The translations under genes and the position numbers were made by a program. A stretch of DNA of 63,693 nucleotides, counting the filler, from Collodictyon triciliatum (taxonomy: Eukaryota), in assembly GCA_043381765.1 (NCBI GenBank). It is 15 parts of 15 records of this genome, joined end to end, with 100 filler letters (N's around TTAATTAATTAA, not from the genome) between each part and the next. Parts side by side here need not be neighbours in the genome. Positions count along the whole stretch, not along the records: positions 46,799 to 50,948 come from JBHJMP010006451.1; 14 more parts are not named here. One strand, given 5' to 3'. The notes under the pieces were generated by a model that saw nothing but the letters and a program-made list of their open reading frames with translations, had not been told where the DNA came from and did no database searches. Positions 4,158 through 51,048 of the stretch are shown piece by piece; the first letter of the stretch is position 1, and each line of letters opens with the position of its first letter.

Positions 4158-4257
4158 NNNNNNNNNNNNNNNNNNNNNNNNNNNNNNNNNNNNNNNNNNN
4201 NTTAATTAATTAANNNNNNNNNNNNNNNNNNNNNNNNNNNNNNNNNNNNNNNNNNNN
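4158..4257. other. Artificial contig spacer N44-TTAATTAATTAA-N44 (first of 14; the others start at 8415, 12672, 16926, 21183, 25438, 29691, 33943, 38195, 42447, 46699, 50949, 55198, 59446)
   Basis: Identical 100-bp block with stop codons in all six frames, recurring about every 4.25 kb. Confidence 0.99.
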
Positions 4258-8275: not shown

Positions 8276-9019
8276 GTATAAACGGTGTTCTTTGTGCAAA
8301 GATTTATACTATATTGTTAACGTATTCAACGTCATAAGTACATTTTAAACTATGGATTCATATGCAACTTAACACCCTTTCCCCCCCCCCCCTACCACCC
8401 CCCACCCCACCCACNNNNNNNNNNNNNNNNNNNNNNNNNNNNNNNNNNNNNNNNNNNNTTAATTAATTAANNNNNNNNNNNNNNNNNNNNNNNNNNNNNN
8501 NNNNNNNNNNNNNNATGTCGTATGAGATTGGTCTGCGTGAGCGCCATTTTCCTTTGTTATTCAGGACGGCTGTGGTTGGCTGTGCATCTTGTGTGCGGAA
8601 TGCGGTGGAGCCTGGCGTTGTGATGCACGAGCCGTCTTCTACGAATGAGATTTCTCTGATGGTGGCCGCGTTGCCTTCGTGAACCTGTTTGATGATGCAG
8701 AAGCCATTCTGGTTGTCCCAGTGTTTTTTATTCATACTGATATACCTCTTCTTACTAGCAATATTGCACTTTCATTACTTTCCTTTAGTGTCTTTGATTT
8801 TCACCCAATTAGTAAGGAATATGGCTGAAGGAAAACAATAATACGTCTTTCCATTATTGCACTTTTTTTTTTGATAAAAGCAGATATTGAAAAAAAGGAG
8901 AGTGTTCGAGAAAAAATTGATTAAGACATAGCGACCAAACTCACATTCACGTAGAAAATGATCTTTCATAGTCTCAGTTTTTCTATGTATCAACCAGGCA
9001 TTTTAATTGAATATTCCTT

Positions 9020-9790
9020 TTATTTCTTCTTTATTCTCGAGAGTGTCCGGCGAATGTGAAGATATTGTGCATCAGGAGTTACGTCAATAAAGTTGAATGA
9101 AAATACTGCGGGTTTGGATTTAGGGCCATTAAACATGGCTTTTTCAACAGGGTCGAGTTGTGCCCAGCGAATTCCGATTATTTTAATCAGCTCAGAATGG
9201 GGAAGAAGAGGATACTCCAATCGAAGGGTGGGTCTCATGAAGTTACAAAAATTGATGAATGGCCGATTCTTGGGTCCCAAAAAGGTGTTCCTGTCATCAT
9301 CTCGGTGCATTGGTGTGGCGTTGCTTTCCTTGCATAATTGACGTGAGGCTATTGCTGAGACTGAAGTTTTTGTTCGATGGGATTCTTTTGGCTCTATTTT
9401 TTCGGTTATTTTTGGAGGACGACCCCTTCGTGGGCAATCTTTTTTTGCATGCTTTTCTGTTTTAAATAAGGGTGATGATGCCGAGGTGGTCTCACAGCTT
9501 TTGAGCTTCGCGGTATCTTGCAGAGCTTCAAGTCTTACTTCGGGGATGGCGATCATGATATTGGGTTCAGATCCAAATGCTCCTGCATCCCGCATATCTG
9601 GCAGACTTTCGAGCTCTGCAAAAAGAGGCTCGCAAGGAAGCTCGCCATCACCATAAAAAATATCTGTAGGGGCACACTTAAGAAGAATATGATGAGATGG
9701 CGGGCTCGATATTTGCTGAAAGGTGCATGTTTTTGACTTGGATTTTTCTTTCGGGTACAAGAACCCTCCTTGGGGTGGCGAGTAAGCCAT
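9020..9790 (-). CDS. Intronless HMG-box protein with AT-hook (about 256 aa)
   Basis: RRGRPPK AT-hook. HMG box NRPFINFCNFMRPTLRLEYPLLPHSELIKIIGIRWAQLDPVEKAMF. Confidence 0.85.
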   Translation of the reverse strand: MAYSPPQGGFLYPKEKSKSKTCTFQQISSPPSHHILLKCAPTDIFYGDGELPCEPLFAELESLPDMRDAGAFGSEPNIMIAIPEVRLEALQDTAKLKSCETTSASSPLFKTEKHAKKDCPRRGRPPKITEKIEPKESHRTKTSVSAIASRQLCKESNATPMHRDDDRNTFLGPKNRPFINFCNFMRPTLRLEYPLLPHSELIKIIGIRWAQLDPVEKAMFNGPKSKPAVFSFNFIDVTPDAQYLHIRRTLSRIKKK

Positions 9791-11362
9791 ATTTACACAC
9801 AAGGCCGATTTCAGCTCTGAGATGTGGCAAAGGGGTAGAGGGCTGTGAAGAGGTTATGACTTTGAACCCTTTAGGTAATCTATGAGCACTGTGGCAAGGT
9901 GAATGAGTGTGGCTGATAGAAGCAAAACAATCACGATAAACAGTTTATTTGGCTTCTTTCCCTTGAATTGTATGAGAGTCCTAGAATAATACCAGACCTA
10001 AATCACTGGACCTTCTTCCTTTGCAAAATGAGATGTCACCCTCCCTAGAACAATAGAGTACAAATAAAATAAGTATATGTGATGATAAGTGCAAAGTTTG
10101 TGTGAAATCAGCGTTAACAGTAGTTTACTATTTGACATTCGTTTTTCTATCATGATAGTTGAAAAGAATATATGACAAAACGATAAGATGACCACGACTG
10201 AATGAGAAAGGTGGGGTAAGGGTTGTGCCATGACAAAAGCTATGGACGTGGCCTGATGGGGTGAGGGGGTGCTATCATCACTCAAAATCCAGACAACTAG
10301 GAAAGAAAGGTAGCTAGCACGTGCGAGGCCAGCTTATGCAAGGGACTAAAGATTATGCAAAGGCGTATGTCGGTGTGAGGGGAAGGCAGACCGATAATGA
10401 ATGGCAGTTTCTCAAACAGCAGAGTCGACTTACACATGCCCGACAATTGTTTTTTCATTAATGCACCAGGCGTTCGCGGGCTCGGTGTGGAGCATTTGGA
10501 AGTAGACCGAGCATATTGTTTTGTAAAAAAAATAATCGTTGGTTGCGTATTTGTGAGGACAGAGATACCCGAACATACCACAATTTGTTTGTCGCATGAC
10601 TGACATTTCCAGCAGATCGGTTGACCTGGACACATGCCTTTGTGGGATTATAAAAACACAGAAAATTGTGGAAGTGAAGCAACCAAATATGGATTAATCT
10701 GCGCCACAAATATTTCCTCATCTGGATTTGTCGTGAAATATGGGGTGAGAATGTTCGAAAAAACGTCCAGGTGTCGACTTTATTTGTGGAATTTTAACCA
10801 AAGTGGGCATGAACAATCTGCACAACCCTGTTTTTATGACCTATCAATTTGTGAGCACACAGATAATATATATTATAAATATATATATCATTATTTTATA
10901 AGTGAATATTTGAGAAAGTCATGTAATAGGATTTTAATTAAAATTAAGTCTATATATTCCAAATTTGTATAAAGCGATCCCCGAACCTGATTTGGAGACC
11001 GAGATTCAACACGGCAACGAAAGGCTGCTGCTCCTTTACAGCCCCACAGCCGCAAAGCGCTTCGTTCCTCTCCGGCGCATCCTTTTTGTTTTACAATTTC
11101 ATCAGCTTCTTTGTTATTTCTTGGAGGGGGTTTTTTTTTTTGAATACCACAGTTTGTGCAAGCAGATTTTGTTCTTGGTTCTGGTTGGTGGGCCATGTGT
11201 CGGGAAGCAGATCCATGAATGAAAACTGGGCGCAGACTCTCGCCAAAAGCACCAGGCATTCGCATATGTCACGCGTGGCTCCTTCTTTCTTTCCCCTCCT
11301 TCTCACCTGTTGCTCTTTTTCTTTCTTCTTCTCTTCCCCACTCCTCACTTTGCGCCCGTAGC

Positions 11363-30881: not shown

Positions 30882-32489
30882 TTAGTATTTGCCCTTGGGC
30901 ACATCGATGCAATCTTCGTAAACTTTACGGAGGTAAAAGTTCACTTTGTCAAGCATATCCTTTTGATTGACTAGATGAGCAGCAGCCATGTGCTTCCTGT
31001 TGACAAGATCTTCCGGATCAAAGTCTTTCATGTAGTGGTCGTACTCTTCATTTGTTGCCAAGCGCGAGTCGATCGCCATAAACCTCATTCTGGCAATCTC
31101 ATTGAATCCATTGACCTCGTTCCATGGATTAAACCAACCCGTTCCGTCAGTAGTTTCCACCACAACACTTTGCTCTGGCATGAAGAGCACGGCCATCTGG
31201 TGGGAACCGTCTGAGGATATGAAGATGTCCAGGTCGGCAAAATATCTTATCTGCTCTTCAAAGCTCATATCTCTCATCACCTCCCAGTACTCTACCTCCA
31301 TTTCAGGGTGAGCGCTTCTAAAAAGAGTTGCAAACTCGGACGCGTCTAACCAGCGCTTGTGACCCGAGTCCCATTTTGCAAAGACAAGAGTCTTTCTTGG
31401 GCACCTTTTCTTCGTCGGTGCAGATATCCCTGCTTGCTGGAAGGAACGGGCACGAATCTTGTCTATGTACTCTCGCACTGCTATGGCATCCACCCGGGAC
31501 ATTGTCTTCAGGTTATTGCCATTTCCCTGCGAGGCGAGTAGGTTACAGCACACAACATTCCGCTCAGATGTTTCGAAGACCTGAAGAGGCTTTCCTCCCA
31601 GCTTGACATTGTGCTCGGATATCAATTCAACCAGGAGGTTGTTGAGTCCACGGTGCCATCGAACTGGGCCGCGTGTGTATGTGGAGCCGTCGATGAGGAT
31701 GTTTTCGAAGGTCTTGAATGTGTCTCCGTTCAAGTGCTGCTCCATACCCAGCACAAAAGACGGGAACTGGCGGCCATACCACATGTGTTGCAGATTGTTG
31801 GAGCCACCGAAGTTGCCCAGTAGCGACAAAGTTGGTCCTTGGATATGCTTGCTCTTCGCCCATGTGTCTGGAGTTGGTACGATGGGAAAGAAGCCGGCTG
31901 AGCCCGCATCTCTGGCAGCCTTCTTCTGCTCTTCAGAGGTCATGTTGAAAAGATAGTATCTGTCTCGCTCCACACATACATCCTGCAGATACAGTGTTTT
32001 GTACTTGGAATCAACCCGAAGCACTTTCCCGTTCGGTGGCCTTTGGTTTTCCACGTCTGAAGACTGTAAGAGCCTCGATACTGGAACATGAATAAACTGG
32101 GCGGTAGAGTGCTCCGTACTCAAAGACGGAACAATCCTCGTCCTGAAGGCTTCTTTCATTAGAGTCAGAAGGCTTAAGGTGACGATTGCCACGCCGAGGC
32201 AAACGACTGTGTGACTTCTGTGGTGTAATTGTATTGGAGGTCAGGAATGAGAACATGGTGGGAAGTGAAATGGTAGAGACTCTCTAAAGTGAGTGCAGAG
32301 GAATGAAGGATGCTCATTTGCCTCTTTGTATTCTCAGCATGCCTTAGCCAGCTGGCGAGGAACGATCTTGAAGAGAAGCGAGCAAAAGTGCAAGTGCGGA
32401 TACAGAGAGGGGTTCTTTGTTTTGTGTGTTGATACCTATGTCATCTGATCGAGACTTCTGCAGATGTAAGAGAGAGGTTACCTTGGCAT
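30882..32489 (-). CDS. Glycosyltransferase family 61-like type II membrane protein, 2 exons
   Basis: ATG CCA AG|gtaacc (32489) splices to ...cacag|A AGT, giving the signal anchor MPRSHTVVCLGVAIVTLSLL. NLQH motif, and MSFEEQIRYFADLDIFISSDGSHQMAVLFMPEQSVVVE matches the GT61 C-terminal signature. Confidence 0.75.
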
Positions 32490-35400: not shown

Positions 35401-36103
35401 TAAAAAAAAAAACCTTTACAAAGAATAGTGTAGAGCAATAACAAGGACTAGAGTATATGATGAAGAAAAATAGAGAGAAAGGGAGAAGGAACCAATATCA
35501 AAATAATAAAATAAAATTAATAAAATAAAAAAGAAAAAGACCAAAATAATGTGGCAAGTCAATCGCCCATCTGCCAACACAGAATTTTTTCCCCTTTTAT
35601 TCGATTCAAAACAACACACACACAATCGATACCATCACATATCAGAAAGGAAATTGCAATATTCTCTCCGCCCACACAATCTAATCGATACCAACAAATA
35701 TCAAAACATCTGTTCTCGTTAGTGTCAGTGGAAATAATAAACACAAATGAAAAACGATTTGATCATCGGGATTCGTTCATCTTCAACAAGCAAGAAAAAT
35801 CCACACACAAACCTTCTTGCAGTCATCTCTATATGATTTCATAAACGTCAAACAAATCCTTTCTCTTCTTTTCACAACAAAGCCTATTCCACAGACACTT
35901 AAAAATCATCCTATGAAGTGAAGACAGCGCATGATCTAAAACTGCAATCACAACCGAAACGCATATATCTCCTATCGCCCAGTAAAGATACTCAAACCAC
36001 ACAAAAGCCCTCAAGCTCACAACCATTTTTTTTTCATACCAACACAGCATCTAAAGCACATCAAAGAAAAAGAACGCCAGATATCAAGACCAAGCTGGGC
36101 GTC

Positions 36104-37009
36104 ATGGATGGCACAAACTGGGAATACGACTTTCCGCTCTTCTCTGAATGGCACGAGGCCTCCCCAGAGTTTACAAGCCAGCTTTCTGAACCCGGCCTCG
36201 ACTCGCCTGCATCTGACGTGCAGATGAGGTTATCGCTCAGAGTGCATCGCCCGTCCTGCAAGACTCTTCTGTCAGCTGCAGAAATGGACGAAATCGTGGC
36301 TCACTCCTTTGGACAGGACTCCCAGATGGAGTCTACGGCAGCCTTGACTCATCCCATCACACGCGATTGCAGTGCCCAGAGCGTCTATCCACTTTGCTCT
36401 GACGTAGTGTCATTTATCAAAGAGGAGCCCTTCTTCGATGACTTTTCGTACCGTCCCTCATCTGAGCAGAGCTGCTTCAATCAACAAGACCCCGCCGAGA
36501 AACAGAACGGGCAGGTTGAGCAGTGCGAACAGAGCCAACTCCTTCACCAGACTTTTTCTTCGAGAAAGTCCAAAGTCCAGAAGCGGCCCAGCCCGAAGCA
36601 GAAGCCAAAGACCGTTTGGCATCACATTACTACTGAAGACAAGAAAGGTATAATAAAGTCTCAATCAGAGACTATTCCAATCGATGAAGAGCAAATGAAA
36701 CCTATGTGTCACGATGAACTCCAATCGCCTCAAGAGATGTGCCTCTCGGCTGATTTTCTGGACTCAATGCCTGCAGTCCGCGCAAGAAAACCTACACAGA
36801 AGCCGTTTATCCGATTTTGCTCTCTTGTTCGTCATGAGATGCGAAGGATGAATCCGTCTCTGTCAAACCACGAGCTGATGAAGACGATCGCATCGACATG
36901 GTATCGACTGGATGAGACGCAAAAGGACTTCTACCGACACCCGTCGGACTCTCGCACCTTCCACTTCATCGATATGACAAAAGATGTCTATACAGCTTCT
37001 CATCAGTAA
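36104..37009 (+). CDS. Intronless HMG-box protein (about 301 aa)
   Basis: C-terminal HMG box QKPFIRFCSLVRHEMRRMNPSLSNHELMKTIASTWYRLDETQKDFY. Acidic N-terminus. Confidence 0.87.
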   Translation: MDGTNWEYDFPLFSEWHEASPEFTSQLSEPGLDSPASDVQMRLSLRVHRPSCKTLLSAAEMDEIVAHSFGQDSQMESTAALTHPITRDCSAQSVYPLCSDVVSFIKEEPFFDDFSYRPSSEQSCFNQQDPAEKQNGQVEQCEQSQLLHQTFSSRKSKVQKRPSPKQKPKTVWHHITTEDKKGIIKSQSETIPIDEEQMKPMCHDELQSPQEMCLSADFLDSMPAVRARKPTQKPFIRFCSLVRHEMRRMNPSLSNHELMKTIASTWYRLDETQKDFYRHPSDSRTFHFIDMTKDVYTASHQ

Positions 37010-43245: not shown

Positions 43246-46200
43246 TTAAGAGGAGAACCCTGGAAGGTGAAAGAAATGGTCGCAGTGTTTTTTGTTGTAC
43301 AACTCCCTGCATCGCAATCCATATCGACAACGGTGAAGGACACTGCTGTCAGTCTGATTCGAAGTATTTGATGGACAAACTTCCATTCTTTCACAGAGAG
43401 GGCAAATATTGCGCCCAGATGAGGTAGCAAGAAACTTCTTTACTGCCTTTCCAGAATCTTCTTCATGAAGAAGGCGAACAGCCTGTAAAGACATGCGCTC
43501 TTTCATATCTCTAGTCCTAATGTAATCCTCCTTATTGCTTTTGCACAATCTCGTTGAAATACCAACCCAGTCAATATTTGATTGCACATTGTCCCAATAG
43601 TCTATTTCAACGATGTTCTCCTGCATGAAATCTTTGGGCATAACTTTCCTTTCCAGAGCCTCCTCAAACTTCAGGCCATTGCGTTGGATTTCAGGCTCGC
43701 TCAAATCTCTACCACATTGAGTTAAGAGAGTTTCGTCTCCATCAGATATCATAAGCTTCAAGAGGGAATCGAAAGCTGATCCAATTTGGTTCATGTGCGG
43801 AGAAATGAACGGGAAGTTACAGAACCTTTCATCAAAAACGTTCATCGCCTCGTAGTCTTCTGCATTTACATATATGTGTACCTATAGGTTATAAGTGTTG
43901 TAATTTTCTCTCTTCATATATGCAAACCGAGATTATTCTATAGATATAAATGTATCTTTAGTGACAGAGACAAACGGAAAATTGCATATAATAATAAAAG
44001 ATAATAATAAAAGATAATAATAAAAGATAATAATAAAAGATAATAATAAAAGATAATAATAAAAGATAATAATAAAAGATAATAATAAACATGCCCAATA
44101 TGATTGGATTATGGTAAAAAAAAACTGAAACAATGAGAGCTAACTAATACGAGAGAAAAAAAAGTAATATTATCGGAAATATTATATATATATATAAAGA
44201 AATAGAAGATAACAATATAGGAAGATTCAAGTTTACTTTACCTGTCTGAAATTTGTATATCTGGACACAAGATCTATGACCATCGAGTTAAATTCCTGGC
44301 GTGGGTATTTTTTCGAAATCCAGGAAGAATCGGGTATTAATACAACATCACAGCCAGCTTTGATCGCTAGGACAAACAATTCATCAAACAAAGCCTTTAA
44401 ACATCCAAGGTCCGTGTCAGTCCCCCTCTCGTATTCAAGTTGTTTCATATTCACGTATGCAAAAGAGCATTTTTGGAATTCAGGGAGTATGTAAAAGCCG
44501 TCTTTCTCTGGACCTCGCATTATGAGACCGTTATCAACAAAAAAGAAAGAATCAGCCGTGTTTTTGAGATTAAAATCGCTATGCATACGTTCTTTTTCTG
44601 ATATATGGGCTAGATGGCCATCCAAATATAGTGGTAGGTCTGTGCGTCGTAGAATGTCACTAAGAACGTGGGCATTTCCATTTTTGTAATCGTTTAATAA
44701 GTTGGGATTTTCGTTTATGAGTGCGACTACGGTATTCATTCCTTTGCTTTTGTAAAATTCGACAGACTTTAATGGATCCAATTCACTGAAGCAAATAGCT
44801 GTTCTGTGGTTCATGGTGCCGTCACTGTTGGACTCGCATTTGCTCCTTCCATTTTGTGAGGGATGGTGTAAAGGCGGCGGTGTAATTATTGCGGGATATG
44901 AATAAGGAGATTTTCCTCTGAAAATCCCGACTGTATGGTGAAGCATTGCTGATCTTACGGAGTGCGGCGGAGGTAGTTCTTGGTCTTCTGGTACAAGTAT
45001 ACCAGAATCATCAAATCTAAATTCTGAGGGTATGGCACTTTCCATATGGATAAAGCGTAAAGGATTCCAGTTCGATCTGTATATGGGATCGTCTGGTGGT
45101 AGATCTCCAAAGATACTATAACGTTCGTAATTAGAGGAGGGTATACAGGATGAAAGCGAAAGATAAGCTGAATTTAAAGGATTTAATTTTGGGACAAAAG
45201 AATCATCCCCCGTGTGTTGTTTGAATTCAACAAAGAAAGCTCCGACCCAACAAAATCCAAGCAGGAAACGGTGCATTCTTTGAAAAGATTGGGTCAGTTT
45301 CAATAAGAGATATGTTGGAGTTAAAGTTACCACGCATAACAAGTAGCCTCCCATGTAATCATATAGACTGGATTGTAACTCTTTCATTTGGTGCGATGCA
45401 TTGTGCTCCAGGAGAATGTAAAAAAATTGGTAGTCCACGTTACACGGCGCTATCTGCGATTCATTCCAAAGGACTGATGATTGACAGAGTGAGTCAAATG
45501 TAATGATGAATCTATTAGGTTCCGTTGTCATGTCGATGATTAGACCAGGGTAGTTCTCTGATAACATTTTAATCCCTTGGGATACCTTTTGGAAAGCAAT
45601 TAGTTGCACGTTACCAGATGCGAATAGGGAAACATGAAAATCTATTGAATTCCAGGTATTAAAGCCTTGGCGTATGCCTGGCTCCGTATTTTGAAGCACA
45701 TGGACAATCCAAATAGGTTGGTTAAAAATGTGGTACACTCTACAACTCGATTGGTTAAAGCTAGAAAGCCATGCTTGAATGAACCTGATAGGTAAGAATG
45801 TTGCTGGGAACACAGGTCTTATGATATATTCATCCATGGCTGATGGTTTCAGAGCACTAACATGGTAATTTACTGGGACGCACCATGATGGTATCTCGTA
45901 ATTAGAAAGCAAAAGCTTCGGGGATGGGAATTGTGCTATTTCCTTTTGAGAGCCAAGAGAATTTTGAATGTAGGTTGCTGGAGACTCTGCGTTCTCATTA
46001 ACAGCCTCTGCTTCTATACAGCTGGAGTACGTAGCTGCACTTGAGAGCAGGTAAGAGGGACCAGATTCAAAAGCCTCTGCTGAATAAACCCTTGGCAGAA
46101 TCTCTTCTATGTTATTGGCTTTGATTGTAGATTTTCTTCATGAAAGAAGAATACTCGAGTATATATATATGGTTGTTGTGTCGACTTTTCTGGTGCAAGA

Positions 46201-46519: not shown

Positions 46520-46600
46520 TCTAAGATTTTAGGAGGTAGAAATTATGTACTTTTTTTTCCTCTCAGGGAGGGCGAAGAGGGAATAGGGTATGCAAAAGTC

Positions 46601-46698
46601 AGAAGAAGAAGAAGAAGAAGAAGAAGAAGAAGAAGAAGAAGAAGAAGAAGAAGAAGAAGAAGAAGAAGAAGAAGAAGAAGAAGAAGAAGAAGAAGAAG
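46601..46698. repeat. (AGA)n microsatellite
   Basis: Trinucleotide array at contig end. Confidence 0.95.
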
Positions 46699-46798: not shown

Positions 46799-49700
46799 AT
46801 CACATTTTTAGGGACATTTTCAATTGGATTTCCGTAGATGATAAGCCCGCTTCGCAGACTCTGAATCGATCCGAGGAGTGAAGATATCTCCTTTATCTGC
46901 ACAGTCAAGCAAATTAAATATTTAGAGAACATTACTCAGAATAATACAACATCAAAATGTATTTCATGCTTCGCCCTTTTTATTATTATTATTTTTTTAT
47001 AGAAATTATGCCGATTACTTTTTACTTTGGGTTAAGTAAGATTCACATCTTAAAATGGATATTAATGATAAAATGATGATATTAAGAATATTTCCGTTAA
47101 AATAACGTTTATCTTATTGCTTAGTTTCATCAGAGTTTATGAGTTTTTTTGTATTTAGTGTAGCAGAAAAAAACTATTTCCTTTTTCCCTCAATTTACTT
47201 TATAATGACAAAGTTGATTTGTTGGCATTGCAGGTGTTCCTTGGGATATGAGATGCGATTATACTTGCCTGATTCAGCGAAATATCGAGCTTCTCTAAGT
47301 TTGTGAGTCTGAATATGGGGTCTGGAACTGTGGTCAACTGTGACATACTTTACATTTAAGTGTCTGAGATTTCAAACAATATGAAGATATTGTCAAAAGT
47401 GCGTGATGGTGGTTTTCAGAAAGGCTACCTGACATTTCGAGATATTTAATCTTTTTATCGTGGTCATTTTTCCAAGCCACTCGGTGTATGCAGTAATCTG
47501 CAGAAAATGAACGAAAAATTTTCAAAATAACTCACGAAAACTAGAAAACGCCACATCAGGTCAATGTATTATTATTTGTCAAAATGATTATTATTTTCTT
47601 CAAGATTTAGGTCTAAGTTTTTTTTCGAGATTGGAGCCCTGACCTGGTTATTCGAAATATTCAGAGATTCGACCGAAAACATACCAAACAACTGCTCTGG
47701 GCATTCTGTAAACTAGGAAATCATTCATAATAATCAGCAGGCTTCATCATTGATTTTATTTCATCTTTTGAGTCTATAAATATTTTTTTATTAAAAACCT
47801 TGTTTTTGCTTATGTCTAATGATGTTAATCCTGTTAAGCTTGATATTTCGAGGGGAAGTAACGATATCTGTGATGCGTGTTGTAAGTAAAAATTGCATAA
47901 TCGTTTCTCGAAGAAATTTATGTATTTGACAAAATCAGGTAGAAAATAAGGGCTTGCTTCGTTGTTGGAAACGTTGAGATTTTTCAGGAGAGTCATCGCA
48001 CATATAGACGTCGACAAACAGTCGAACTTATTGGAATATAGGCATCACAAAATCAGAATATGTTATAACGAAATACAATCATTTATTTAAACGCTATTTA
48101 TCCAAAATGCGAAACTTAATTACATACTTTGTTCCCACTGGTGTTGAATGCTACAATTTTGGACAGGCATGATATTTCTGAAGGAATGGTCAACAGCTGA
48201 TTTTGAGAAACATCAAGGCGAGTAAGAACCGTCAGGTGTGATATTTGGGCGGGTAACGATGATATCTGTAATCATAGTAAAAGAGAATAATGCAAGAATG
48301 AACGAAGTTGATTCAAATGCAGTTATTGAATTAAATACAAATGTTTTTTTCAAAAAGATAGCAGTAAATAAAAAAACACATGTGAAAAACCTTGTTTTTA
48401 GATAAGTCCAGATATACTAGATTTGTAAGAGCGAAGCATGGCTCCGGGAAAGATGTAAGCTGTAAACAAGGTGGTGAGTTTAAGTATATTGATTGTTAAA
48501 TGACAGTTTTTTTGAAGATATTTAAGAAAATATTACTTCGTTTGAATGGATGTAGAGTTTCTTCAGCCCAACTAAATGCTTGAGCGAATCAGGAATATGA
48601 TAGAGCTTCATGTCGCCCATCCATAGCGAGGTTGCATGTTGGATTCCATGGTGATGAGGGATATATTGCACATTCACGTACTGAAATTCTTCCAACTCTT
48701 GAAGAATGCTAGAGCTTAATGGATGTTTAGGAGATTCAATCTCATTTGGTTGCAAGCAGTCGTTTATGAATTGGGATGCAAACGAGAGTTCTTGCTCAGA
48801 GATCGAATGGTTCGCATGGACATCAGGTTGGTCAAGCTTGGATATTGTGTTTCCATCAAGCCTCAAGGCTTTCACTTTCTCAAGCAATCTTTCTGACAAT
48901 TCGTCTTTCTTTTTCTGCAGATGAGTCACCAATTGGCTGTAAAATAATGCCTTAACATTCTTCTTAGGTGCATTAGAATCGCTACCAGAGCCTTCAACAG
49001 ATTGATTTGACAATTCAACAAATGCAGAAATGTCATCTGGTGATATATGATACATCTCAACCATTTTGCTTTCATTCATTATGTCTCGAAAGTCATCGAA
49101 TCTTTCCCTGCTCGTTTGGTTTGAAATTGTATCGCTCAATTTTAAAAAGCGATGCTTTCGCAGCCACTCCACAAATTCACCCTGGTACATATCAGCCAAA
49201 GGAGCATATTTAATTGGAAGCAAATCGTTCATCGTCTTTTGAGGAAGCCTCTGTTCACCTGATTTCAACTCATCCAAGTATACACAAACTTGATTCAGAG
49301 AAGGTCGGAGCTTATAGTTTTGCTTCCAGCACTCCCTGATAAGATGGTTAAGCTCACAAGTGGCTTCTTTCGGTATTTCAGGCCGTAATCCCCTGATGAC
49401 TGAATTTTGTGGCCTTGACTCATGCAAAAAAGGCTCGATGCCAGAAAACATGTACCAAACGAGCATTGCCAAAGCATACACATTGCTTGGTTCTCCTCGG
49501 TGCCCAATATTCACTTCATTTTCACCATACATTTCAGGATTATCATCATAGAACGGCTTACAAGCAACTTCATGGATTTCTGGTGCTTGCCAGTTGGCAG
49601 TTCCGTCTTGCTTGTCCTCACCAAATCTCGTCGGTAAGTTTGAACCGACTTTATCTACGTCACGACGGCTCACTATCCCAAAATCCACAATTTTTAACGA

Positions 49701-50930
49701 TTCACCCACAATCATAACATTATCGGCCTTCAAATCTTCGTGGTACAGATTTTTGGAATGCAAGAAAATTAGACCAACGCACATTTGCTTTGTGTAAGAA
49801 ATAATTTGAGGTAATGTTGGCTTGATATTTTTCTTTTCCAACATAGATTTCAACGAAAAGCCTGCATTCTCCATAACCATGTAAAATTTGTCCTCTTTGC
49901 GATACACACCGAATAATTTGACAATATTTTCACATTCTTTGCATTCATGCAGAAACTTGCTTTCAAAAATGAACGATTGAATCACCTCGCTGAAGGTCTG
50001 TTGCCTCATAGCCGGCATGGTTTGGATTTTCACCACAGCACTTTTTCCTTTGAATGTTGTTTTATAAACGCGCCCAAAAACCCCCCTTGCGAGATACTCT
50101 ATTAATTCTATTCTTTCATCAATCCATAGGTCCTTCAATTCTCGGTCGAATGAATCCAGCTCAAGAGTTGCTTCAGGAGATTGCGGCTTCCTATTCTTTT
50201 CCGCTCTCACCACAGAGGTAAATCTCTTTGAGATTCCTTTATTTTTTAAGAAAAATGATTTACTAGTTTTCAATAAAATTTAATCAAATTATGATTAAGT
50301 TGAAAATTAAGATATATTTGAATATATTGGTAAAAAGTACCTTGTTCCAGATAGACGATCCCTTTCTTTACTGCACTTGTTTCTAGTTGATGGCTCTTCG
50401 TACACACATTCAATTCTGATTCATCTATCTTTGCTGATGTTTGAACGTATCCGTCTAATTCATGGCGCCGACATACTGGGCATTCAAATCGGTAAGCTTC
50501 CACAAAATTTGGTCGAATCGATGATATTTGTTTGATGAAGGTGCAAAGAATGTCAAAAATACTGACGATTCTACCGCCTTCATCAATTTCGTTTTCGTAT
50601 TTTCTAATCTTAACTGAAATATGCTTTTGGAGGATTTGGTACAAAATAATCAATCCGTCTCCTGGAAGCAGTTGAATTTCATCCGTTCCTGTTTTGCAGG
50701 AAGCATTCAGGTGTATGAATGCCACATCTCTGAAAAATTGGTCGTCATACTGAACTCCAGCTTGTGCCCTTTTTGTCAAGCGAAGCGCTTGAATGGCGAT
50801 ACTTCTTTTGTCAGAGAGTTGGACGTCACCGTTGGTCATTATTTCTACAGAGGTTTCAGCGATACAGTTTGACTCTGGTTTTTCATTCCATAACGCTTTT
50901 AGGTTTTGGCAATCCTCCATCAATGAGGGA
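46799..50930 (-). CDS. Roco-like TKL kinase fragment: COR-like - non-RD kinase - SAM-like region - LRRs (both ends truncated)
   Basis: A COR C-terminal-like exon (W...ECPVC...CTKSH) splices in phase 1 to 50236. Kinase motifs LARGVFGRV, AVVK, HEDLKADN, DFG, GTANWQAPE, CW..RP. LRR exons follow at 48459-48391, 48265-48128, 48026-47958, 47867-47799, 47712-47644, 47497-47429, 47337-47269 and 46896 to the edge. Confidence 0.88.
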
Positions 50931-51048
50931 AAGGCAATGCATTCTCTGNNNNNNNNNNNNNNNNNNNNNNNNNNNNNNNNNNNNNNNNNNNNTTAATTAA
51001 TTAANNNNNNNNNNNNNNNNNNNNNNNNNNNNNNNNNNNNNNNNNNNN

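What the first reader, a model, noticed from the sequence alone, without database searches (positions are those of the whole stretch)
46799..48537. One LRR per 69-nt phase-0 exon, two with GC donors: a cassette array able to diversify a receptor
Exon lengths are exactly 69, 138, 69, 69, 69, 69 and 69 nt (23-aa LRRs). Every intron is phase 0 at the same LRR register, after N-x. Any subset could therefore be skipped, duplicated or swapped without frameshift. The 69-nt periodicity fixes two donors as GC (GAA|gcaagc at 47957, CAG|gcaagt at 47268), and GC donors are often alternatively used. The repeats are highly diverged. The LRR gene at 57.2-58.0 kb has an intron at the same register. Exon-per-LRR shuffling is described for Ectocarpus ROCO genes; here it sits downstream of a kinase. 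Inference: a combinatorial, immune-like recognition system in a protist.
Basis: partly seen in the sequence, partly recalled or inferred. Interest (0 to 1): 0.8.

Follow-up and report, generated by a model that had tools for sequence, protein, structure and literature searches.

The report
One-repeat-per-exon LRR kinase gene
A freshwater protist gene for a protein kinase carries a tail of leucine-rich repeats in which almost every 23-residue repeat sits on its own 69-base exon; the layout is real and partly confirmed in RNA, but nothing yet shows that it is used to mix and match repeats.

Summary
On the minus strand of one 4.15-kb contig (window 46799-50948), a 581-codon kinase exon is followed by exons of 69, 138, 69, 69, 69, 69 and 69 nt and a last open exon. 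All eight introns are phase 0 and follow N-x of the LRR motif. Two donors are GC. A lake metatranscriptome confirms the GC-AG intron 47957-47868 and the GT-AG intron 48127-48027. It also holds one unspliced contig over the GC intron, the only intron that is stop-free in frame.

The repeats are old and diverged (mean 39% nt identity), with no repeated DNA and no exon skipping seen. The 985-residue fragment has no membrane segment. The LRRs are of the cytosolic SHOC2/LRRD1/ROCO 23-residue class.

The nearest relatives are Diphylleia rotans LRR-kinase transcripts. Their isoform breakpoints fall at the same N-x register. The layout is best read as a conserved legacy of exon duplication, like the Ectocarpus LRR-kinases. 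The window is a chain of unlinked contigs, so the "57-58 kb LRR gene" is not a neighbour.

The parts
50341..50947 (-). N-terminal coding exon, open to the contig end: 202 codons plus 1 nt of unknown fold
   Evidence: Open frame. No Pfam family at E<=0.1 apart from a zinc-ribbon hint at E 0.12. No Atlas hit. AlphaFold2 single-sequence model with pLDDT 35, unusable. The exon end is inferred from GT at 50340.
50237..50340 (-). Inferred 104-nt GT-AG intron, phase 1, between the N-terminal exon and the kinase exon
   Evidence: Frame change between ORFs 50270-50992 and 48522-50279. Splice signals read. The joined frame is open. No RNA support.
48537..50236 (-). Large exon holding the protein kinase domain (about 49284-50102), a ~215-residue linker with a segment shared with Diphylleia relatives, and the first LRR(s). 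It ends with N-E followed by donor GTAATA.
   Evidence: Pfam Pkinase 117.9 bits, residues 60-332. 33% identity over 320 aa to Diphylleia LRR-kinase P0172, extending past the kinase. Catalytic loop H-E-D (non-RD); DFG, APE and the lysine are present.
48391..48459 (-). LRR exon 1, 69 nt, phase 0 on both sides
48128..48265 (-). LRR exon 2, 138 nt, holding two repeats. The internal repeat junction reads CAG|CTG where the other repeats have an intron, consistent with a precise intron loss.
   Evidence: Best solved-structure matches are LRRD1 and SHOC2. Its 3' junction to the next exon is seen in RNA.
47958..48026 (-). LRR exon 3, 69 nt, followed by the GC donor GCAAGC
   Evidence: Both of its junctions are seen in RNA contigs.
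47868..47957 (-). 90-nt GC-AG intron. It is the only one of the eight introns that is a multiple of three and stop-free in frame, and it is seen both spliced out and unspliced.
   Evidence: The joint 47867|47958 skips 90 nt with ends CT..GC on the + strand. A separate 137-nt contig runs straight through 47851-47987. Frame analysis.
47799..47867 (-). LRR exon 4, 69 nt
47644..47712 (-). LRR exon 5, 69 nt (acceptor TAG)
47429..47497 (-). LRR exon 6, 69 nt (Cys in place of the Asn)
47269..47337 (-). LRR exon 7, 69 nt, followed by the GC donor GCAAGT at 47268
   Evidence: This donor has no RNA support. It is fixed only by frame and LRR period.
46801..46896 (-). Last visible exon (96+ nt): a final repeat ending G-N-P and running on without an intron, cut by the contig end

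Best explanation
This is a fragment, cut at both contig ends, of an expressed gene of a freshwater protist related to Diphylleia (CRuMs). It encodes a soluble, probably cytosolic, signalling protein: an unknown N-terminal region, a non-RD protein kinase, a linker, and a C-terminal solenoid of at least 10-11 leucine-rich repeats of the 23-residue SHOC2/LRRD1/ROCO class. That solenoid most likely acts as a protein-binding or autoregulatory surface for the kinase. The one-LRR-per-69-nt phase-0 exon layout is the footprint of how the domain was built, by tandem duplication of a single symmetric LRR exon. It is old: the repeats have diverged, one intron inside the array and those between the first repeats have been lost, and the same intron register is present in another LRR gene of the same assembly and in Diphylleia LRR-kinases. 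As far as the data reach, the exons are spliced in order. The GC donors are functional but probably weaker, so the in-frame 90-nt GC intron is sometimes left in. Shown: the exon structure, two junctions in RNA, the LRR class, the kinase family, the absence of a membrane segment and the divergence of the repeats. Inferred: origin by exon duplication, cytosolic location, binding function and constitutive splicing of the rest.
For: Exon coordinates, phases and register. RNA junctions for the GC-AG and one GT-AG intron, joining neighbouring exons. Spliced product open for 985 aa and aligning almost gaplessly with LRR domains of period 23. LRR class: the best solved matches of the two-repeat exon are LRRD1 (7e-28), SHOC2 (9e-27), Leptospira LIC proteins and RSU1. 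Hits are dominated by LRR-Roc-COR, SHOC2, erbin and PIRL-type proteins. Kinase. No hydrophobic 19-residue window above 1.45. Old, diverged repeats with no repeated DNA. Register conserved elsewhere: the small LRR gene has a phase-0 intron after N-P. In Diphylleia, 2 of 2 isoform breakpoints that fall inside LRR arrays lie exactly after N-x, and the divergent upstream text ends in Q, as a retained ...CAG would read. No internal LRR gain or loss in 4 isoform comparisons from 3 Diphylleia LRR-kinase clusters. Precedent: Ectocarpus LRR-kinases have repetitive LRR exons with traceable paralogy and no shuffling (PMC3341825, passages).
Against: RNA cover is thin: four contigs at depth about 2 from one metatranscriptome, covering only 47800-48234 and 48712-48818. 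Exon skipping elsewhere or at low frequency would not have been seen, and contigs drop rare variants. An unspliced contig over the GC intron does exist, so processing is not strictly uniform. Two GC donors among 9 introns of the gene is far above the roughly 1% quoted for human introns (PMC3167603, abstract). GC donors are reported as enriched in alternatively spliced genes (PMC2490688, abstract). The kinase is non-RD, a class linked to innate immune signalling (PMC8463890, abstract). No genome is held, so paralogues, family size and exon exchange between genes could not be examined. Both protein ends are missing, so a signal peptide, membrane segment or Roc-COR further upstream cannot be excluded.
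Confidence: 0.62

Rival explanations
1. Cassette splicing: individual 69-nt LRR exons are skipped in varying combinations, so one gene yields kinases with different LRR surfaces, an immune-like recognition repertoire.
For: Every exon is symmetric (phase 0-0) and of one repeat length, so any subset can be removed in frame. There are two GC donors. Literature links GC donors with alternative splicing (PMC2490688, abstract), and reports alternative splicing of modular LRR exons in human NLRs (PMC6642158, passages) and in brown-algal ROCO genes (PMC11378527, passages). The kinase is non-RD.
Against: No skipped form was seen. Both junctions observed join adjacent exons. There were 0 internal LRR in/dels in 4 Diphylleia isoform comparisons. 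A 23-aa length difference between two Diphylleia isoforms turned out to be a duplicated stretch inside the kinase. In-frame compatibility is a property of any domain built by exon duplication and does not show use.
Confidence: 0.12
2. Evolutionary exon shuffling, as in Ectocarpus ROCO genes: LRR exons are exchanged, duplicated and deleted between and within paralogues over short evolutionary times, and the gene is one member of a fast-evolving family.
For: The exon type is shared by two unrelated LRR genes on 2 of 15 random contigs. A family of related LRR-kinases exists in Diphylleia: at least 6 distinct 50%-identity clusters among the best 8 hits. Short boundary-spanning similarities exist between units (34 nt at 74%, 24 nt at 83%).
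Against: Within the gene no two units exceed 55% nt identity. No intron similarity was found and there are no tandem repeats. None of the non-coding LRR relics in introns described for Ectocarpus were found (PMC3341825). Paralogues could not be examined because no genome is held.
Confidence: 0.12
3. Regulated retention of the in-frame 90-nt GC-AG intron: leaving it in inserts 30 residues between the fourth and fifth exon-encoded repeats and alters or breaks the solenoid, giving an on/off or variant isoform without nonsense-mediated decay.
For: It is the only intron of eight that is both a multiple of three and stop-free. Spliced and unspliced contigs occur at equal word depth (2 and 2), while the neighbouring GT intron appears only spliced. 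Its donor is GC.
Against: The unspliced contig may be pre-mRNA or DNA carried in the RNA library (warning). My own estimate, not computed in any call, is that one such stop-free intron among eight would arise by chance about one time in five. Depth 2 gives no usable ratio.
Confidence: 0.08
4. Parallel intron gain: the introns were inserted independently at the same proto-splice-like site (codons ending AAG or CAG after the Asn) in an already assembled LRR array.
For: Six of the eight introns' upstream exons end in AAG or CAG, resembling the MAG|R proto-splice site (recalled, not from a call).
Against: The base after the junction is a purine in only 4 of 8 cases. Identical phase and register across eight introns, a second gene and Diphylleia is explained more simply by inheritance from one duplicated exon. 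The 138-nt exon looks like a loss, not a missing gain.
Confidence: 0.05

Closest known systems
Ectocarpus LRR-kinases and LRR-ROCO genes with one LRR per exon (Zambounis et al. 2012, PMC3341825; Teng et al. 2024, PMC11378527)
   Same: Each LRR is encoded by its own exon of constant length. The exons are symmetric, so they can be added or removed in frame. The exon type is shared by several LRR gene families in one genome. A kinase is in the same protein in the LRR-kinase subset. The Ectocarpus LRR-kinases, like this gene, showed repetitive exons without shuffling (passages read).
   Different: Exons are 72 nt / 24 aa there and 69 nt / 23 aa here. The boundary there is after NxLx (type I) or offset (type II), and here it is after Nx. 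The phase is given as 2 by Teng et al. and is 0 here. ROCO exons there are near-identical and recombining, whereas here they are diverged (39% nt). No Roc-COR was found here. The supergroup differs (stramenopile versus a CRuMs-like protist). Supplementary tables of both papers could not be seen.
Exonic modularity of LRR domains in vertebrate NLRs (Hoss et al. 2019, PMC6642158)
   Same: There are strict exon-per-repeat (NOD/NLRC, one 28-aa LRR) or exon-per-two-repeat (NLRP) arrays, with introns at one fixed position of the repeat. The layout is a precondition for in-frame alternative splicing (passages read).
   Different: The LRR class differs (28/29-residue RI-like versus 23-residue). The protein context differs (NACHT versus kinase). 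Alternative splicing is demonstrated there and not here.
Diphylleia rotans LRR-kinase transcripts (EukProt EP00002; P0172, P0173, P0174, P0023)
   Same: The kinases are homologous (33-37% identity, with a shared insert and a shared post-kinase segment). They have 23-residue LRRs. The intron register after N-x is inferred from two retained-intron isoforms. The cap motif LPCWNNT is shared with the window's small LRR gene.
   Different: In Diphylleia the LRRs are N-terminal to the kinase and the proteins end after the post-kinase segments. Here the LRRs follow the kinase. Those kinases have H-R-D (P0172), while this one and its closest Diphylleia relative P0001 have H-E-D.
SHOC2 / LRRD1 / RSU1 / ROCO-type cytosolic LRR scaffolds
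   Same: The repeat length is 23 and the consensus is LxxLxLxxNxLxxLPxxIxxLxx. They are the best solved-structure matches and give near-gapless alignment with LRR-Roc-COR proteins.
   Different: Those proteins lack a kinase N-terminal to the LRRs. Their gene structures were not examined here.

Membership tests
Eukaryotic protein kinase (Pfam PF00069/PF07714) | Kinase domain profile above the curated cut-off | tested here: met
   Pkinase 117.9 bits (cut-off 31.7) and PK_Tyr_Ser-Thr 116.6 bits, residues 57-332
Eukaryotic protein kinase (Pfam PF00069/PF07714) | Catalytic residues: beta-3 Lys, catalytic loop Asp and Asn, DFG, APE | tested here: met
   All are present. The catalytic loop reads H-E-D-L-K-x-x-N, so the kinase is non-RD, and the first Gly of the glycine loop is replaced. 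Activity itself was not tested.
ROCO proteins (LRR-Roc-COR, with or without kinase) | Roc GTPase domain followed by COR | tested here: not met
   No Roc, Ras or COR profile was found in the 581-aa ORF or in the 225-aa ORF directly upstream of the kinase, even at E<=10. The protein's N-terminus is missing at the contig end, so a more distant Roc-COR cannot be excluded.
ROCO proteins (LRR-Roc-COR, with or without kinase) | LRRs N-terminal to the Roc-COR core | tested here: not met
   The LRRs lie C-terminal to the kinase
Modular exon-per-LRR arrays with shuffling (Ectocarpus type I LRR exons) | One LRR per exon, constant length, symmetric phase | tested here: met
   Six 69-nt exons and one 138-nt exon, all phase 0-0. 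The length is 69, not 72, and the boundary is two residues earlier than type I.
Modular exon-per-LRR arrays with shuffling (Ectocarpus type I LRR exons) | Near-identical exons, recombination between and within loci, non-coding LRR relics in introns | tested here: not met
   Within this gene the maximum nt identity is 55% and the mean 39%. There are no repeats over 34 nt and no LRR relics in introns. Comparison between loci is not testable because no genome is held.
Modular exon-per-LRR arrays with shuffling (Ectocarpus type I LRR exons) | Alternative transcripts with different LRR exon sets | tested here: inconclusive
   Only two junctions are covered, and both join adjacent exons. One unspliced contig was seen. 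There were 0 of 4 LRR in/dels among Diphylleia isoforms.
Receptor kinases of the plant LRR-RLK type | Extracellular N-terminal LRRs, a single membrane span, then the kinase | tested here: not met
   The order is kinase then LRR. The highest 19-residue hydropathy is 1.45, inside the kinase. The repeat period is 23 and the class is cytosolic.
23-residue SHOC2/LRRD1/RSU1-class LRR | Period 23 with LxxLxLxxNx plus LxxLPxxI | tested here: met
   Column consensus over 10 units. Solved-structure matches. Near-gapless alignment over 240-279 aa.

The most novel reading that the evidence does not exclude
Diphyllatean-like protists (CRuMs) independently evolved a family of soluble non-RD kinases whose 23-residue LRR sensor domains are built from interchangeable 69-nt phase-0 exons. 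Weak GC donors allow exon skipping or in-frame intron retention, so single genes give several recognition surfaces. This would be a third, independent origin of a modular LRR-based immune-like system, after vertebrate NLRs and brown-algal ROCOs.
Probability: 0.1. Interest if true: 0.75.

Novelty: new member of a known kind. Interest (0 to 1): 0.35.

Why it matters
Exon-per-repeat LRR arrays are cited as raw material for receptor diversification in vertebrate NLRs and brown-algal ROCO genes. Finding the same layout in a lineage close to Diphylleia, with a different exon length, phase and register, shows that the architecture arises repeatedly and can persist long after the repeats have diverged. 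That argues against reading the layout alone as evidence of a diversifying system. The gene gives a concrete, testable case: one primer pair across about 1.7 kb would show whether skipping occurs. It also adds a verified GC-AG intron and a first look at gene structure in a barely sampled eukaryotic supergroup. A search of the paper library found no paper holding both 'Diphylleia' and 'LRR'.

Tried and rejected
1. The whole-genome search failed because no genome is held for this window. No census of 69-nt LRR exons or paralogue comparison was therefore possible beyond the 15 contigs of the window.

2. Earlier findings of the scan returned nothing by place, sequence or words.

3. The metagenome contig scan with the kinase ORF gave one distant locus (L001, 31% over 118 residues). 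It was of no use for exon structure.

4. The 'longer' homologue search found no close long relative. The best hits were insect STE20-like kinases at 28%.

5. The N-terminal 202 aa remains unexplained: no Pfam family, no usable Atlas hit, and an AlphaFold2 single-sequence model with pLDDT 35. No fold search was attempted on that model.

6. Rfam found no match anywhere in the window.

7. An LRR-region search with Diphylleia P0172 was swamped by generic LRR proteins and yielded no further isoforms.

8. A 23-aa length difference between Diphylleia isoforms P0295 and P0036 looked like a skipped LRR. It is a duplicated stretch inside the kinase.

9. Only one sequencing run held the stretch, with 0.06 of the sampled words. 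Parts of the gene without cover say nothing either way.

10. An alternative GT four bases into the second GC-donor intron was considered by eye. With the nearby acceptors it does not restore the frame. This was not computed in a call.

11. ROCO membership was considered and rejected for lack of Roc-COR.
Full report
**What the window is.** N runs recur every ~4252 bases as N44-TTAATTAATTAA-N44. The 63.7-kb window is therefore a chain of about fifteen unlinked contigs of ~4.15 kb each. The finding lies on one of them, window 46799-50948. Both the start of the finding (46799) and the upstream end of the gene (50948) are contig ends. The 'LRR gene at 57.2-58.0 kb' is on another contig (55298-59445) and is not a neighbour. 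No whole genome is held, and the scan has no earlier notes on it.

**The observation.** The gene reads on the minus strand.
- A 581-codon open frame (50279-48537) holds a protein kinase domain: Pfam Pkinase 117.9 bits, residues 60-332.
- This frame runs without a stop through a ~215-residue linker into a first LRR. It ends with N-E followed by GTAATA.
- Exons of 69, 138, 69, 69, 69, 69 and 69 nt follow, then a last exon of at least 96 nt that runs into the contig end.
- The eight introns measure 77, 125, 101, 90, 86, 146, 91 and 372 nt. One search gave 78 for the first because I set the donor one base off; searches give the right end, 48537.
- All eight introns are phase 0 and sit right after N-x (once C-x) of LxxLxLxxNx. 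Each 69-nt exon therefore carries exactly one 23-residue repeat.
- Two donors are GC: GCAAGC at 47957 and GCAAGT at 47268. Both match the rest of the donor consensus well.
- A motif-plus-splice-signal census finds 9 such units in the window, 8 in this gene and 1 in the other LRR gene. Twenty shuffles gave 0-1.
- The spliced product, computed from coordinates, is open for 985 residues. Its LRR part aligns almost without gaps over 240-279 residues at 31-37% identity with 23-period LRR domains of other proteins. That would fail if any splice boundary were wrong.

**RNA evidence.** One public run held part of the stretch: a lake-water metatranscriptome with 0.06 of the sampled words. Laid on the contig, it gave four contigs.
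- One 98-nt contig with no mismatch joins 47958 to 47867, skipping 90 nt with ends GC..AG on the gene's strand. The first GC donor is therefore real. The shorter side of the joint is 30 nt, at the tool's caution limit.
- One 179-nt contig joins 48128 to 48026, skipping 101 nt (GT..AG).
- One 137-nt contig runs unspliced through 47851-47987, that is, through the GC-AG intron.
- A fourth contig on 48712-48818 has 10 mismatches and belongs to a paralogue or a relative.

Depths are about 2. Both joints link adjacent exons, and no skipped form was seen, but only 47800-48234 of the array was covered. The 90-nt GC intron is the only one of the eight that is a multiple of three and free of in-frame stops. 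A retained copy would therefore insert 30 residues rather than truncate. By my own estimate, not run in a call, this could be chance, and the unspliced contig may be pre-mRNA or DNA.

**What the protein is.**
- The kinase has the lysine, the catalytic Asp and Asn, DFG and APE. Its catalytic loop reads H-E-D, so it is a non-RD kinase, and its glycine loop is degenerate.
- Against solved structures it is a generic kinase. The best matches are STK10, Src-family kinases, TTK and RIPK1, at 1e-18 to 1e-14.
- The 202 residues upstream are joined by an inferred phase-1 intron, 50340-50237. They match nothing: no Pfam family, no Atlas hit, and an unusable single-sequence model.
- No Roc or COR domain is present in what is visible.
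- No 19-residue window exceeds a hydropathy of 1.45, and that one lies inside the kinase. The visible protein therefore has no membrane span, and kinase and LRRs lie on the same side of any membrane.
- The two-repeat exon matches LRRD1, SHOC2, Leptospira LIC proteins and RSU1 best.
- The wider searches bring up LRR-Roc-COR, SHOC2, erbin and PIRL-type proteins.
- This is the cytosolic 23-residue LRR class, not the 24-residue extracellular plant type.

**Relatives.**
- The only close relatives among 5.8 and 1.8 billion proteins are transcripts of Diphylleia rotans, a member of Collodictyonidae in CRuMs. P0001 and P0002 are 51% identical. P0023 to P0027 are 31-37% identical.
- Full-length Diphylleia members (P0172, P0173, P0174, P0023) have the order LRR, kinase, then post-kinase segments. 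The domain order here, kinase then LRR, is therefore different.
- The Diphylleia isoforms gave a test of the cassette idea. In 3 LRR-bearing clusters (4 comparisons), no isoform lacks or gains an internal repeat.
- Two isoforms instead diverge N-terminally exactly after G-N-P and G-N-D. The foreign upstream text ends in Q, as a retained intron ending CAG would read. The intron register after N-x, phase 0, thus seems shared with Diphylleia.
- A 23-residue difference in another cluster is a duplicated stretch inside the kinase.
- The window's small LRR gene has exon 1 at 58035-57793 (243 nt) and exon 2 at 57721-57545 (177 nt), both phase 0. It has its intron after N-P and shares a cap module with the motif LPCWNNT with Diphylleia P0172 at the equivalent place.

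**Age of the array.**
- The ten repeat units share on average 39% nt and 27% aa identity, with maxima of 55% and 61%.
- The longest direct repeat in the region is 34 nt at 74%. Tandem Repeats Finder reports nothing.
- The introns hold no decayed LRR copies.
- The 138-nt exon has CAG|CTG at the place where the other units have an intron. The first repeat(s) are fused to the large exon, which fits occasional precise intron loss.
- This is the picture of an old array made by duplication of one symmetric exon and since diverged. It is not the picture of a locus that is being reshuffled now.

**Comparison with what is known.**
- In Ectocarpus, each LRR of ROCO genes is on a 72-nt (24-aa) exon with highly similar, recombining copies. 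The 15 LRR-kinases have repetitive exons of two registers, but shuffling was reported for ROCO and not for LRR-kinase genes (PMC3341825, passages).
- Teng et al. give phase 2 and report alternative transcripts with different LRR sets (PMC11378527, passages).
- Human NLR genes show strict exon-per-LRR modularity, with demonstrated alternative splicing of NLRP3 (PMC6642158, abstract and passages).
- GC donors are reported as enriched in alternatively spliced genes (PMC2490688, abstract).
- Non-RD kinases are linked to innate immune signalling (PMC8463890, abstract).
- Against this background the present gene is a new member of a known kind. It differs in exon length (69 nt), phase (0), register (after N-x), domain order and lineage.
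- A library search found no paper holding both 'Diphylleia' and 'LRR'.

**Verdict.** The structural observation is confirmed and partly validated in RNA. The functional inference of a combinatorial, immune-like receptor system is not shown. The architecture permits it. The GC donors, the non-RD kinase and one unspliced contig are weak hints for it. The divergence of the repeats, the ordered junctions, the lack of LRR in/dels in Diphylleia isoforms, the cytosolic LRR class and the absence of a membrane span speak for an ordinary LRR-kinase whose exon pattern records its origin. I put 0.62 on that reading and about 0.1 each on cassette splicing and on evolutionary shuffling. Both remain open mainly because no genome and almost no RNA were available.

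Noticed in passing
whole window; linkers at 4158-4257, 8415-8514... 59446-59545: The window is not one piece of chromosome. About fifteen contigs of ~4.15 kb, in slowly decreasing size, are joined by N44-TTAATTAATTAA-N44 spacers. Any inference from gene neighbourhood across these spacers is invalid.
   Followed up: yes
window 57545-58035 (minus), continuing to about 57300: A small LRR gene starting with ATG at 58035. Exon 1 is 243 nt and exon 2 is 177 nt, both ending in phase 0. Exon 2 carries a cap module with the motif LPCWNNT that matches Diphylleia LRR-kinase P0172 at residues 137-200. Further downstream the frame reads a charged Ala/Glu/Arg/Lys repeat that looks like a coiled coil (read; not analysed).
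   Followed up: partly
window 48712-48818: A metatranscriptome contig matches this part of the linker with 10 mismatches in 107 nt and has unrelated ends. A paralogue or a related strain or species is expressed in the same lake sample.
   Followed up: no
window 49740-49760 (catalytic loop of the kinase): The catalytic loop is H-E-D rather than H-R-D, making this a non-RD kinase. Its closest Diphylleia relative P0001 has the same, whereas the Diphylleia LRR-kinase P0172 has H-R-D.
   Followed up: partly
window about 46600-46698 and 58765-58865: Long microsatellites at or near contig ends: (GAA)n of about 95 nt abutting the spacer, and (GAGT)n followed by (GT)n. These are probably the reason the assembly broke there.
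   Followed up: no
window 44233-46137 (minus): A 634-codon open frame with no Pfam family, on the contig next to the one studied.
   Followed up: no
window 18757-20331, 35903-37009, 9020-9853, 30882-32240, 62837-63691: Other long open frames on other contigs: a Myb protein with two repeats, two HMG-box proteins, a glycosyltransferase family 61 protein and a RING finger protein. Rfam found no RNA family in the window.
   Followed up: no
Diphylleia proteins P0172, P0173, P0174 (not in the window): These LRR-kinases carry two LRR blocks, each closed by the same cap ending in LPCW. Two similar post-kinase segments follow the kinase, and the first of these is also recognisable after the window's kinase. 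Pfam names neither element.
   Followed up: no
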